This document shows positions 1 to 2,393 of a DNA stretch of 2,393 nucleotides, one piece after another (the first letter of the stretch is position 1; every line of letters starts with the position of its first letter). A program made the translations under genes and the position numbers. The stretch comes from Naegleria gruberi (Eukaryota), in NCBI GenBank assembly GCA_000004985.1, contig GG739265.1. One strand, given 5' to 3'. Below the pieces are notes generated by a model. The model was given only the letters and a program-made list of their open reading frames with translations. It ran no database searches and was not told the DNA's origin.

Positions 1-565
1 ATCTACATTATTGTTAATAATTAAATTGTTATAAGGTGCAAAAAACTGTAGATCAGTTCAAACTCAAAAGGTTCTCTCCTATATCTAAATCAACCTTTCC
101 CAATTATAGTCAATTCAGATGCTTCTCCTCAAGGATATGGCGTCCACTCCTCAAACACTGTTGTTATAGGAAGATCTCACACCAACGATCATATCGATTC
201 GAAAGAAATGATGGCAATTCTTCAATTCTTCAGAAGCAAGATCACAAAAGCTCTATCTTGAAATAGGAAGGGCCAATTCAACTGCCCTCTCATACATAAG
301 AAAAAGATATGGAACTTTCGAACCTCGCTCAAATAGCAAGGAAAATTTGGAAATAGAATGTGGCTTGAGAATTGCAAAAGTAATCTACATTCCCTCAGAG
401 AAAAATTACAGACAAACTGAGCGGTTTAAGTGATTAGAAATCATCACCAGAATTGATAAGTATGGTAGAAAAAGAATTCAGAACCACATCATCGACAGAT
501 TTGCAATATCAGAGTCAGCAATAAATAAACCAATGTTAGATATTAGTTGTTCCATTTATTTTTAA
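1..565 (+). mobile_element. Older, decayed DIRS-like retrotransposon fragment: RNase H remnant plus a possible trace of the start of the recombinase region. Oriented convergently to the minus-strand copy.
   Basis: RNase H homology 85..433 as above. After the TGA at 431 the same frame continues as 'LEIITRIDKYGRKRIQNHIIDRFAISESAINKPMLDISCSIYF*'. This weakly resembles 'ELINLVEDR' at the minus copy's RH end and 'AYRRTIHGIIQQIRES' at its YR-frame start. Upstream 1..84 has stops in all frames. Base composition changes abruptly to about 80% A+T after about 565. Confidence 0.45.
85..433 (+). pseudogene. Degenerate second copy of the retrotransposon RNase H domain. It carries a frameshift, a nonsense codon and substitutions at catalytic residues.
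   Basis: Hand translation of the plus-strand frame with codons at 100,103,... gives 'LNQPFPIIVNSDASPQGYGVHSSNTVVIGRSHTNDHIDSKEMMAILQFFRSKITKALS*' (stop 259..261). This aligns with the minus copy 'AVIINSDTTLSGFAIHSSNLVIVGQF...SSINVKELKAIYQFFKKASQQKL'. After a +1 shift near 232-236 the next frame gives 'ARSQKLYLEIGRANSTALSYIRKRYGTFEPRSNSKENLEIECGLRIAKVIYIPSEKNYRQTERFK*' (TGA 431..433). This aligns with 'ASQQKLFPPGTHFEIRGDNQPSLVYVRKGYGSIEHLSSIARDLWTILKLKDWHISKTVYIPSEVNNIADRLSRL'. By eye, identity is about 45-55% over about 110 aa. The catalytic D of 'IRGDNQ' is A ('IGRANS') and the D of 'ADRLSR' is E ('QTERFK'). Confidence 0.7.
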
Positions 566-984
566 ACTTATCACTACATCAACCTCCATGAATCTAGTTG
601 TCTATTTCTTGTTGTAAGAGTTTTTCTTTGTTTTAATAAACAACTATCAAACTCTACTTTTACTACTTCTAATAACAGTGTTTTTGTAATATTTTTACAA
701 AGTTTGTTCTTTCTTTGAATTCATTTTCTTTGGATTTACCATAAAGATTATTACTTCCAATCAATAATCTTCATAATGATAACACCAACTTTAGCAGATT
801 TTTAAAAATTAATCGTTTTTTATATTTTATATTACTTTGTTAAGCTTTTCTAAATTTCAAATCGATAAAATTTTTGAAAATTTATTTGTTACATTGCAAA
901 TTAATAAAAACAAGATTGAGAACAAGTAATTATACTAATGGGTATTAAAGCTCAGAGACTGTTTCACCTTTAAGGTGATTCAGC

Positions 985-1032
985 CTTGAGACCTGCTTTA
1001 ATGGATATAAATCTTTATTAGCAGGTCCCGAG
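985..1032. repeat. Imperfect inverted repeat (stem-loop): 13-nt arms 985..997 and 1020..1032 with a perfect 8-bp core gacctgct/agcaggtc (990..997 / 1020..1027) and a 22-nt AT-rich loop.
   Basis: Read directly. The reverse complement of 990..997 'gacctgct' is 'agcaggtc', found at 1020..1027. The outer extension ccttga/ctcggg pairs with one mismatch and one T:G. It lies in a locally GC-richer island (940..1035) inside the AT-rich spacer. A second small palindrome 'tcacctt-t-aaggtga' lies at 964..978. Confidence 0.6.
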
Positions 1033-1144
1033 ATTAATAAATATGGCTCTTATAAAAAAACTTATCAATAGTATTAGTAAAGATAAGAAAAAAATTAGGA
1101 GATGCGAGTAGGAGGCATAAACTAAAATGAAATTAAAATAAAAA

Positions 1145-1165
1145 AGATATCATTTGATGATATCT
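1145..1165. repeat. Perfect palindrome agatatcat-ttg-atgatatct (9-bp arms, 3-nt spacer, contains two GATATC sites). It sits 23 nt past the stop of the truncated recombinase ORF. On the minus strand it is followed by the T-rich run ttttttattttaatttcatttt.
   Basis: Read directly. The reverse complement of 1145..1153 equals 1157..1165. Low GC content (2 of 9 pairs). Confidence 0.6.
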
Positions 1166-1187
1166 GAAACCTCACTTCAACGAACAC

Positions 1188-1817
1188 TTACCAAGAATCA
1201 TTGAGAGCGTAAAAAAGGTTGAATAAGGTCATAGGACAGTATTTCTTTTCACCACAGTAAGGTTCGATTGGGGTTGGATTGTCAATCATGAAAAAATCAG
1301 TTTTGTGGTCTGATAGATCAAATGTAAACCAATTTTTCTTTGGATCATTTGGTTTCACAGAAGACCAAGAGAGATCGCAAAGATCACCAGGTCTTACTAG
1401 AAGTCTGAAACCAATAACCAGTACAGCAGTGGTTAAATTATAGGTATATTCATCATGTGATGAAATCGAATCAATATATGATTTAATATCATAAGAGGAG
1501 AAACCATTACGTTTGAGTTTAGAACGATCCACAATATAGTAGGCTTTAGTAAGACCTTTCTTAACTCTTGAAAAACTACTATCTACATTGAGTTGCCAAC
1601 CTTCCACGTCTGCAAAGAATTGAATGGCTGGTTTCAATGTATTAATATCATAACTTTTCTTATTAATAGAAAGGTATGCAGCAAAACATTCGAGTGCATA
1701 TGGGTTTGTCTTTGGAATATTCTGAATTACCAGGAACCATTGAAAAGCACCATAAAGTTTAGAATATTTCTTAATTGTGGAATCAGTAAGGGAGATTGAC
1801 AGGCCAAAATTTCTCAT
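1188..1817 (-). CDS. DIRS/Ngaro-type tyrosine recombinase, C-terminally truncated. It has the N-terminal core-binding/SAM-like domain and the first part of the catalytic domain only. It lacks the HxxR box and the catalytic Tyr, so it is likely non-functional.
   Basis: ATG at 1817..1815 and stop at TAA 1190..1188. The frame is also open upstream to 1967 (stop TAG at 1968..1970 on the minus strand), giving a 20-nt overlap with the end of the RNase H ORF. N-terminal segment 'STIKKYSKLYGAFQWF...ALECFAAYLSINKKSYDINTLKPAIQFF' fits the YR core-binding domain pattern (ST...Y...W..F ... FL..L ... S.STI....A). 'VIGFRLLVRPGDLCDL' fits box I with the conserved Arg. 'FDLSDHKTDFF' fits the beta-hairpin Lys region. 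'KKYCPMTLFNLFYAL' fits the ..CPV..L..YL segment that normally precedes the HxxR box. No HxxR or Tyr follows. All three minus-strand frames below 1188 are stop-rich and AT-rich. Confidence 0.68.
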   Translation of the reverse strand: MRNFGLSISLTDSTIKKYSKLYGAFQWFLVIQNIPKTNPYALECFAAYLSINKKSYDINTLKPAIQFFADVEGWQLNVDSSFSRVKKGLTKAYYIVDRSKLKRNGFSSYDIKSYIDSISSHDEYTYNLTTAVLVIGFRLLVRPGDLCDLSWSSVKPNDPKKNWFTFDLSDHKTDFFMIDNPTPIEPYCGEKKYCPMTLFNLFYALNDSW

Positions 1818-1944
1818 TGATAATAAAGTTGACCGTTCACTTGAGCTACCAGAAAGGTGTGATTCTCGAATTTGTTGAATAATTCCGTGGATGGTTCTAC
1901 GATAAGCAGTTTTCTTGGAACACTTTGAATTTTTACGGATATCT

Positions 1945-2393
1945 TTAACAGAATTGGGTACGGTCTTCTACCAAATTTATCAATTCTTGAGAAGATTTCC
2001 TATCTCCCAGTCTGCTTAGTCTGTCGGCAATGTTGTTTACTTCTGATGGAATGTACACTGTTTTGGAAATGTGCCAATCTTTCAACTTGAGAATGGTCCA
2101 CAAGTCTCTTGCTATTGATGAGAGGTGTTCTATTGAACCATAGCCTTTTCTTACATAAACTAAGGATGGTTGATTGTCTCCTCGGATCTCAAAGTGAGTT
2201 CCTGGAGGAAACAACTTCTGTTGGCTTGCTTTTTTGAAGAATTGATAGATTGCTTTCAATTCTTTCACGTTTATAGAGGATTCTTCTTGGAATTGACCCA
2301 CAATGACAAGATTTGATGAATGGATGGCGAATCCTGAGAGAGTTGTGTCTGAATTGATTATTACTGCTTTGGGAGATTCCAGTTCTAACCACG
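1945..2393 (-). CDS. Retrotransposon Pol fragment: RNase H domain (partial CDS; the N-terminus with reverse transcriptase lies beyond the window edge). The 'M' at 2301 in the ORF track is a GTG inside an open frame, not a real start.
   Basis: Hand translation of the minus strand shows the ORF2 frame stays open from 2391 down to the TAA at 1945..1947. The translation begins ...WLELESPKAVIINSDTTLSGFAIHSSNLVIVGQFQEESSINVKELKAIYQFF... The track's ...IRGDNQPSLVYVRKGYGSIEHL...DWHISKTVYIPSEVNNIADRLSRLGDRK... supplies the canonical RNase H landmarks. These are D in 'SDTT..G.GA' (motif DAS..G.GA), E in 'VKELKAI', D in 'IRGDNQ', and D in the C-terminal 'N..ADRLSR'. That last motif is typical of DIRS, Ty3/gypsy and BEL RNase H. 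Codon 2299..2301 is cac on the plus strand, i.e. GTG, so it is an alternative-start artefact of the ORF caller. Confidence 0.8.
   Translation of the reverse strand, partial: WLELESPKAVIINSDTTLSGFAIHSSNLVIVGQFQEESSINVKELKAIYQFFKKASQQKLFPPGTHFEIRGDNQPSLVYVRKGYGSIEHLSSIARDLWTILKLKDWHISKTVYIPSEVNNIADRLSRLGDRKSSQELINLVEDRTQFC

What the first reader, a model, noticed from the sequence alone, without database searches (positions are those of the whole stretch)
1..565. Second, convergently oriented RNase H copy that is diverged, frameshifted and catalytically dead: a nested or clustered retroelement graveyard
The plus strand 85..433 encodes a clear homologue of the minus-strand RNase H (shared IIVNSDxS.GYG, AIxQFF, EIxR, YVRK.YG, KxxYIPSE strings). 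It has a +1 frameshift near 232-236, an in-frame TGA at 431, a 5-aa and a 3-aa deletion, and loss of two catalytic Asp. About 50% protein identity means this is not a recent duplication of the other copy. It is an old insertion of a related family member. Two DIRS-like fragments tail-to-tail within 2.4 kb is the kind of self-targeted, nested accumulation reported for DIRS1 clusters in Dictyostelium centromeric regions.
Basis: partly seen in the sequence, partly recalled or inferred. Interest (0 to 1): 0.5.

Follow-up and report, generated by a model that had tools for sequence, protein, structure and literature searches.

The report
Dead retrotransposon RNase H fragment in Naegleria
The plus-strand stretch is a real but broken 473-base leftover of the RNase H gene of a tyrosine-recombinase (DIRS-type) retrotransposon, lying next to a second, also defective, copy from a sister family in a Naegleria-like amoeba genome; this is ordinary transposon debris.

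Summary
Window 52-524 (+) is homologous to the minus-strand RNase H at 2391-1964 (tblastx sum E 2.8e-21; 45% protein identity). The details need correcting.

- **Origin:** the fragment is not a diverged copy of its neighbour. It is 93.9% nucleotide-identical to an intact element of a different family (L005, a metagenome contig).
- **Damage:** it differs from L005 by 29 substitutions spread 10/9/10 over codon positions, which is the neutral pattern. It also has six deletions of 2, 15, 2, 7, 5 and 1 nt, five of them frameshifting.
- **Stops and active site:** the RNase H-frame stop is TAG 435-437. The TGA at 431 lies in a different, overprinted frame. Only one catalytic Asp is lost (GAC to GCC, 272-274).
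- **Extent:** homology ends sharply at 52 and about 524, so this is a short internal fragment.
- **The neighbour:** the minus copy is also defective. It has a 225-nt deletion in the methyltransferase-like domain and lacks the C-terminal catalytic part of the recombinase.
- **Family and host:** relatives encode gag, RT-RNase H-Dam-like and a tyrosine recombinase, which is the DIRS order. The host is almost certainly Naegleria, where such degraded copies are already reported.

Nested insertion and a wider "graveyard" cannot be tested in 2.4 kb. Interest is low.

The parts
52..524 (+). Family-B pol pseudogene fragment: the RNase H domain plus the first ~15 codons of the Dam-like (MT) domain. It reads in frames +1, +2 and +3, with six deletions.
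   Evidence: blastn to L005 2092-2596: 444/473 aligned bases identical and 32 gap positions. The repaired translation is 76.6% identical to the intact pol P0028.
272..274 (+). Lost catalytic Asp: GAC to GCC, so 'EIRGDN' becomes 'EIGRAN'.
   Evidence: The column is invariant in 42 pol sequences (D72).
435..437 (+). TAG stop in the RNase H frame, derived from TGG (Trp).
431..433 (+). TGA stop (from CGA) in the overprinted gag/recombinase frame.
   Evidence: alt-frame column.
525..860 (.). AT-rich spacer with no recognisable element sequence and no ORF. The right-hand limit is approximate.
   Evidence: No significant match to L001-L011. No recombinase trace in any frame.
867..1046 (-). Region downstream of the recombinase stop codon (3' untranslated region) of the family-A copy. 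It carries the conserved motif TAATCTCGGGACC ... TACCCATTAGTATAA, split by about 80 extra nt that contain the hairpin 985-1032.
   Evidence: Matches to L002 2718-2777 and 2693-2717 and to L008 4068-4114. Tail comparison. Hairpin I21.
1047..1205 (-). Unrecognisable sequence where the recombinase C-terminal catalytic part (HxxR, W, Y) should be.
   Evidence: The YR profile match stops at about 1206 and no C-terminal part is found in any frame. Relatives continue for about 107 more residues.
1206..1817 (-). Tyrosine recombinase ORF (frame -1, ATG at 1817), covering the N-terminal and core-binding part through Arg-I and the Lys hairpin. It is truncated, and the ORF runs on to the stop at 1188.
   Evidence: Representative search: 84% identity to P0001, E 4.6e-111. 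tblastn to the L001 YR residues 1-195, 77%. About 97% identical to the overlapping part of N. gruberi P0025.
1817..1960 (-). C-terminal 48 codons of pol (frame -2), overlapped by the upstream extension of the recombinase frame.
   Evidence: tblastn to L002 pol 392-439, 96%.
1961..1964 (-). Junction of a 225-nt internal deletion that removes most of the Dam-like domain and shifts pol from frame -3 to -2.
   Evidence: blastn: window 1964-2391 aligns to L002 1428-1001 and window 1233-1961 aligns to L002 2382-1654. L002 1429-1653 is absent from the window.
1964..2391 (-). Family-A RNase H domain (frame -3), open and with an intact D-E-D-D tetrad. The element continues upstream (RT) beyond the window edge.
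   Evidence: 81% identical to L002 pol. AlphaFold model with pLDDT 89.6 matches RNase H1 structures at E 3e-7. Invariant D15, E44, D72 and D123.

Best explanation
Window 52-524 is a non-functional relic. It is an internal piece of the pol gene (RNase H domain and the start of the Dam-like domain) of a DIRS-order, tyrosine-recombinase retrotransposon of 'family B'. It sits in a Naegleria-type genome.

Inferred history: a family-B element integrated here, lost selection, and was whittled down by deletions. Six small deletions lie inside the surviving piece, and larger ones presumably removed both flanks. It also collected neutral substitutions, including one catalytic Asp-to-Ala change and premature stops in both overlapping frames.

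About 335 nt away, in convergent orientation, lies a separately inserted copy of sister 'family A'. That copy came from an actively selected lineage but is itself crippled by a 225-nt deletion in the Dam-like domain and by loss of the recombinase catalytic C-terminus.

Neither piece can encode a working protein. The ~45-50% protein identity between them reflects divergence between families, not the age of the insertion.

Shown: homology, family assignment, the lesions and the neutral substitution pattern. Inferred: the order of events and the reason the two pieces are neighbours.
For: - Homology between the two copies: tblastx sum E 2.8e-21.
- The plus fragment is 93.9% identical to the intact family-B locus L005, with six deletions and no insertions. 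Its 29 substitutions fall 10/9/10 on codon positions, 18 non-synonymous and 11 synonymous.
- By contrast, the minus copy against L002 shows a third-position excess: 21/8/46 in RNase H and 17/11/65 in the recombinase.
- The repaired plus translation is 76.6% identical to pol P0028, against 45-52% to family-A pols.
- Sharp ends of homology at 52 and about 524.
- Lesions of the minus copy.
- Domain identity: RVT_1 E 1.9e-23, a weak Dam hit, and Phage_integrase above its cut-off in the reference element. The pol profile matches Ty3 RT/RNase H 4ol8 at E 2e-46. The RNase H fold is confirmed.
- Host: a Naegleria gruberi protein is about 97% identical over the shared recombinase part, and there is a Naegleria fowleri pol relative.
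- Literature: degraded DIRS1-like copies in N. gruberi (PMC3266345); DIRS makes up 0.32% of the N. lovaniensis genome (PMC6125883).
Against: - L005 comes from a metagenome sample, not demonstrably from the same genome. The 6% divergence therefore mixes post-insertion decay with differences between copies or species, and the direction of each change is not known.
- The source genome and the wider locus were not available, so flanks 1-51 and 525-860 remain unidentified.
- Assembly chimerism cannot be formally excluded.
Confidence: 0.9

Rival explanations
1. Nested insertion. The family-A element integrated into an older family-B element, splitting it. The rest of the B element (Dam-like domain and recombinase) would lie beyond the far (right-hand) end of the A copy, outside the window.
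For: The two pieces are convergent and close together. DIRS sequences occupy only about 0.3% of a Naegleria genome (PMC6125883), so two fragments within 1 kb of each other is unlikely under uniform scatter. DIRS1 of Dictyostelium is known, from established literature, to insert into its own copies.
Against: The B fragment's right end (about 524) and the last recognisable A sequence (about 867) are separated by about 335 nt that match no element. The B fragment is also cut at its left end, at 52. A single nested insertion does not explain that.
Confidence: 0.15
2. Local inverted duplication of the neighbouring RNase H region, followed by long divergence.
For: The two regions form a colinear inverted repeat.
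Against: The fragment is 94% identical to family-B L005 but only about 68-79% identical to the neighbour and its family. It also keeps the start of the Dam-like domain, which the neighbour has deleted.
Confidence: 0.02
3. Assembly artefact: a chimeric contig that joins reads from two repeat families.
For: Related elements sit on short contigs that break just past the recombinase stop codon, and one contig is circularly permuted. These repeats clearly trouble assemblers.
Against: The two pieces are not joined at a shared repeat. They are separated by unique AT-rich sequence. The fragment carries its own set of deletions, as expected of a real decayed locus.
Confidence: 0.05
4. The fragment is functional, for example as a domesticated RNase H-like gene or as a source of antisense or small RNA against active elements.
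For: None directly. The convergent arrangement could in principle give overlapping transcripts.
Against: There are five frameshifts, a stop in each overlapping frame, loss of a catalytic Asp and a neutral substitution pattern. Identity to the neighbour is only about 70%, too low for a perfect duplex.
Confidence: 0.02

Closest known systems
DIRS1-like / PAT-like retrotransposons (DIRS order, tyrosine-recombinase retrotransposons), as surveyed by Piednoel et al. 2011 (PMC3266345)
   Same: Intact relatives encode gag, then pol with RT, RNase H and a Dam-like methyltransferase domain, then a tyrosine recombinase. The recombinase ORF overlaps pol extensively and only its catalytic part is non-overlapping. 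That paper lists degraded copies with many frameshifts for Naegleria gruberi.
   Different: The terminal repeat structure that separates DIRS1-like (ITR plus ICR) from PAT-like (split direct repeats) could not be established. One relative assembles as a 4097-nt circle with a head-to-tail junction. A N. fowleri copy has only a weak 28-nt inverted repeat.
Ty3/gypsy-type RT-RNase H (e.g. PDB 4ol8) and cellular RNase H1
   Same: The pol profile matches Ty3 RT/RNase H at E 2e-46. The modelled domain superposes on RNase H1 structures, and the D-E-D-D tetrad is invariant in the family.
   Different: The element has no DDE integrase or protease and uses a tyrosine recombinase instead. The plus-strand copy has lost one Asp and its reading frame.
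DIRS1 clusters at Dictyostelium centromeres
   Same: Two defective DIRS-order fragments lie side by side in opposite orientation.
   Different: Only two pieces in 2.4 kb were seen. They come from different families, they do not abut, and there is no evidence of repeated self-insertion or of a centromeric location.

Membership tests
RNase H (type 1) domain of retroelement pol | RNase H fold (five-stranded sheet with flanking helices) | tested here: met
   The minus-copy domain was modelled with a 42-sequence alignment at pLDDT 89.6. Top PDB matches are RNase HI/H1 and retroviral RNase H at E 3e-7 to 1e-4. The plus fragment is assigned by 94% nt identity to the L005 pol.
RNase H (type 1) domain of retroelement pol | Intact D-E-D-D catalytic tetrad in one reading frame | tested here: not met
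   Plus fragment: D 118-120 and E 205-207 are kept, the third residue is D to A at 272-274, and the fourth D (411-413) sits in another frame after frameshifts. The minus copy keeps all four.
DIRS order (tyrosine-recombinase retrotransposons) | Reverse transcriptase in the same pol ORF as the RNase H | tested here: met
   RVT_1 E 1.9e-23 in the L001 pol; also present in the L005 pol P0028. The window itself lacks the RT part, which lies off its edge or has been deleted.
DIRS order (tyrosine-recombinase retrotransposons) | Tyrosine recombinase instead of a DDE integrase | tested here: met
   Phage_integrase 28.6 bits, above the 27.1 cut-off, in the L001 YR. The window's minus copy matches the N-terminal 195 residues, and its catalytic HxxR and Y are missing.
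DIRS1-like / PAT-like superfamilies | Dam-like methyltransferase domain after RNase H | tested here: inconclusive
   PF05869 scores E 6.4e-4 at 19.9 bits, below the 28.1 cut-off, in the L001 pol. Many more distant pol homologues carry precomputed PF05869 hits.
DIRS1-like / PAT-like superfamilies | Long overlap of the recombinase ORF with pol | tested here: met
   0-1 stops in the recombinase frame over 439-668 pol codons in six elements, against 25-40 expected from synonymous-codon shuffles.
DIRS1-like sensu stricto | Inverted terminal repeats plus internal complementary regions | tested here: inconclusive
   No full-length family A or B copy with flanks was obtained. A weak 28-nt inverted repeat was found around a N. 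fowleri copy, and an inverted repeat in the L008 tail. L009 is circularly permuted, which fits split direct repeats, tandem copies or circles better.
Ngaro / VIPER | No methyltransferase domain and usually no ORF overlaps (PMC3266345) | tested here: not met
   Relatives have a Dam-like segment and a whole-pol overlap, so this is not Ngaro-like despite the RNase H-then-recombinase order seen in the window.
Self-targeted DIRS cluster (Dictyostelium type) | Many nested copies over tens of kb, with insertions inside other copies | not testable with these tools
   Only 2393 bases are available. The source genome is not in the searchable collections: the exact-protein look-ups failed, and the two metagenome scans returned nothing and one distant locus.

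The most novel reading that the evidence does not exclude
Both RNase H copies would be made of dual-coding DNA. In intact relatives from five families, the gag ORF and the recombinase ORF share one reading frame across the whole element. They are interrupted by a single stop codon, which is always TGA followed by C. The entire RT-RNase H-Dam pol is overprinted on that frame.

This would mean a Gag-X-recombinase polyprotein made by stop-codon readthrough, with pol reached by a frameshift. I did not find that expression strategy described for DIRS-type elements.
Probability: 0.35. Interest if true: 0.5.

Novelty: already known. Interest (0 to 1): 0.12.

Why it matters
It matters little in itself. 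The result shows that the flagged feature is routine transposon debris in a genus where degraded DIRS-type copies are already on record.

Its practical value is in annotation. The window holds two different Naegleria DIRS-order families, and intact reference copies (L001/L002 for one, L005 for the other) are now identified for masking and dating.

The by-product is more interesting than the finding. The whole-element gag/recombinase frame with a conserved TGA-C stop bears on how these poorly understood elements express their proteins.

Tried and rejected
- Pfam on the window's own peptides gave nothing useful.
- The word-indexed protein search with the RNase H peptide found nothing, although relatives exist in the collection. 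The exhaustive representative search with the recombinase peptide opened the case instead.
- Exact-sequence look-ups of the window ORF and of the N. gruberi protein failed.
- The single-sequence AlphaFold model was too poor to use (pLDDT 52).
- No tRNA was found. Rfam gave only sub-threshold noise.
- The metagenome scan with the RNase H alignment found nothing. The recombinase alignment found one distant locus, L004.
- Intron hypothesis: the recombinase ORF stops at TGG|TAAGTG, which resembles a 5' splice site. I tested whether the missing catalytic exon lies downstream. No HxxR...Y segment exists in any frame on either strand, so I rejected it.
- I looked for a continuation of the plus fragment into Dam-like or recombinase sequence after 524, and for its upstream RT before 52. 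None was found.
- The global nucleotide alignment of 860-1260 to the L001 and L002 tails was ambiguous. Only the post-stop motifs are convincing.
- Low-penalty nucleotide alignments between families over-gap and inflate identity (last three lines). I did not use them.
- A literature search for readthrough in DIRS elements returned nothing relevant.

Full report
**Observation**

The window is AT-rich (33% G+C). On the minus strand, frame -3 is open from 2391 to 1945 and reads as an RNase H-like domain. Frame -1 holds a 209-codon ORF (1817-1188) that looks like the first two thirds of a tyrosine recombinase.

The plus strand 52-524 is homologous to the minus-strand RNase H region:

- tblastx gives four colinear HSPs with a sum E-value of 2.8e-21.
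- blastn gives colinear inverted HSPs of 73-79% identity, and these also appear as inverted repeats I1-I4.
- The repaired translation is 45% identical to the neighbour.

**What the sequences are**

Pfam on the window peptides was silent and a word-indexed protein search found nothing. An exhaustive HMMER search with the recombinase peptide found 22 relatives, the best 84% identical. One named relative is a Naegleria gruberi 'predicted protein, partial'. Over the shared part it differs from the window at about 3 of 104 positions.

The contigs behind these proteins gave intact reference elements. In L001, a 668-codon pol is followed by a 302-codon recombinase that overlaps it by ATGA. Domain evidence for this reference is:

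- RVT_1 at E 1.9e-23, a weak RNase H-like RVT_3 hit, and a sub-threshold Dam hit in pol.
- Phage_integrase above its cut-off in the recombinase.
- A 42-sequence pol alignment has the RNase H D-E-D-D residues as invariant columns.
- As a profile, that alignment matches Ty3 RT/RNase H (PDB 4ol8) at E 2e-46.
- With that alignment the window's minus-strand domain models at pLDDT 89.6. It superposes on RNase HI/H1 and retroviral RNase H structures at E 3e-7 and weaker.

More distant pol homologues commonly carry RVT_1 plus Dam, the signature of DIRS1-like and PAT-like elements. A Naegleria fowleri protein is among the hits.

Degraded DIRS1-like copies 'with too many frameshifts or indels' are listed for N. 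gruberi by Piednoel et al. 2011 (PMC3266345). DIRS makes up 0.32% of the N. lovaniensis genome (PMC6125883).

**The plus-strand fragment**

Its repaired translation is 76.6% identical to pol P0028, against 45-52% to the neighbour's family. At the DNA level, window 52-524 aligns to L005 2092-2596 with 444 of 473 aligned bases identical (93.9%).

The window copy carries six deletions and no insertions:

| Position | Length |
|---|---|
| 232 | 2 nt |
| 253 | 15 nt |
| 322 | 2 nt |
| 352 | 7 nt |
| 408 | 5 nt |
| 482 | 1 nt |

The 29 substitutions fall 10/9/10 on codon positions. Eighteen are non-synonymous and 11 synonymous, with 23 transitions and 6 transversions. This is the pattern of unconstrained decay. 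They include:

- Trp to stop (TAG 435-437) in the RNase H frame.
- Asp to Ala at the third catalytic position (272-274).

The first Asp (118-120), the Glu (205-207) and the last Asp codon (411-413) survive.

Homology stops abruptly at 52 and at about 524. Window 1-51 and 525-860 match nothing in any reference locus, and no recombinase trace follows the fragment. The feature is therefore a 473-nt internal scrap covering RNase H and the first ~15 codons of the Dam-like domain.

**The minus-strand copy**

It belongs to a different family, being 82-85% nucleotide-identical to L002. Its differences from L002 are concentrated at third codon positions: 21/8/46 in RNase H and 17/11/65 in the recombinase. 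It therefore descends from a lineage under purifying selection.

It is nevertheless dead:

- L002 1429-1653 (225 nt, most of the Dam-like domain) is missing at window 1961-1964. This shifts pol from frame -3 to frame -2.
- The recombinase match ends at about 1206-1233. The HxxR and Tyr catalytic part is absent in every frame.
- The frame that overlaps the RNase H region has two stops, where L002 has none.

Sequence typical of the region just after the recombinase stop codon reappears at 1046-1030 and 944-867. It contains the motif TAATCTCGGGACC ... TACCCATTAGTATAA, which is shared with L001, L002 and L009-L011 and, for its second half, with L004 and L008. In the window about 80 extra bases, including a hairpin, lie between the two halves of the motif.

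**Interpretation**

The ~50% protein identity between the two copies is divergence between families, not age. The fragment is a moderately diverged (about 6%) but heavily deleted relic of a family-B element. It lies about 335 nt from the 3' end of a defective family-A copy, in convergent orientation.

A local inverted duplication is excluded by the 94% match to L005.

Nested insertion is not supported by the geometry, because the pieces do not abut and the fragment is cut on both sides. It cannot be excluded without the wider locus.

Two DIRS pieces within 1 kb is more than uniform scatter would predict, given occupancy of about 0.3%. However, this is one post-hoc observation.

**Classification**

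The relatives have gag, RT-RNase H-Dam-like and a recombinase with a long overlap. They are therefore DIRS1-like or PAT-like, not Ngaro-like as the domain order in the window alone might suggest (PMC3266345).

The terminal repeats that would decide between DIRS1-like and PAT-like were not recovered. L009 is a circular contig with a 30-nt terminal overlap and a 4097-nt unit. L010 and L011 run from the recombinase through about 140 nt into gag. This hints at split direct repeats, tandem copies or circular forms.

**Side observation**

In six intact elements the recombinase frame has 0-1 stops across the whole pol ORF. Synonymous-codon shuffles predict 25-40, with a minimum of 13-26 in 2000 shuffles.

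The single stop is the gag stop. It is always TGA followed by C, and gag and the recombinase share that frame in all five families examined.

A long overlap between pol and the recombinase ORF is known for DIRS1-like elements. I did not find the same-frame gag/TGA-C arrangement described in the searchable library.

**Verdict**

This is ordinary, already-known transposon debris, so interest is low.

Noticed in passing
L001 956-958, L005 1062-1064, L007 1106-1108, L008 1198-1200, L009 1037-1039; the same frame in window 2392-1964 (-2) and 1964-1188 (-1): In five families, gag and the tyrosine recombinase lie in one frame over the whole element. A single stop interrupts it, always TGA followed by C. 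The entire pol ORF is overprinted on this frame, with 0-1 stops against 25-40 expected. This suggests a readthrough Gag-X-recombinase protein.
   Followed up: partly
L009 1-30 and 4098-4127; L010 3-1028; L011 1-723: L009 is a circular contig with an exact 30-nt terminal overlap and a 4097-nt unit. L010 and L011 run from the recombinase through about 140 nt straight into the gag start. This is a head-to-tail junction, as expected from split direct repeats, tandem copies or circular DNA forms.
   Followed up: partly
window 1046-1030 and 944-930 (minus strand); L001, L002, L004, L008, L009-11 just after the recombinase stop: A conserved non-coding motif, TAATCTCGG(G/A)ACC..(T)ACCCATT(A/T)GTAT, follows the recombinase stop codon in several families. 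L004 and L008 share only its second half. In the window the two halves are separated by about 80 extra nt that contain a 13-nt-arm hairpin (985-997 / 1020-1032) and the palindrome TCACCTTTAAGGTGA.
   Followed up: partly
window 1961-1964: A 225-nt internal deletion in the minus-strand copy removes most of the Dam-like domain and changes the pol frame.
   Followed up: yes
window 1186-1196 (minus strand): The truncated recombinase ORF ends at TGG|TAAGTG, which resembles a canonical 5' splice site. No downstream exon with the catalytic residues exists, so this is taken as coincidence.
   Followed up: yes
window 1145-1165: A near-perfect palindrome, AGATATCAT-TTG-ATGATATCT, lies in the unrecognisable stretch after the recombinase remnant. 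Its significance is unknown.
   Followed up: no
L006 8440-12669 (Naegleria fowleri VFQX01000017.1): A ~4.2-kb relative (gag-like ORF, 728-codon pol frame, short recombinase ORF) is bounded by a weak 28-nt inverted repeat (75% complementary). It sits between ordinary host genes, so it looks like a solitary insertion rather than a cluster.
   Followed up: partly
L003 and L005: Family-A-like (L003) and family-B (L005) elements come from the same sequencing run (ERR1078381). The two families therefore co-occur in at least one sample, as they do in the window.
   Followed up: no
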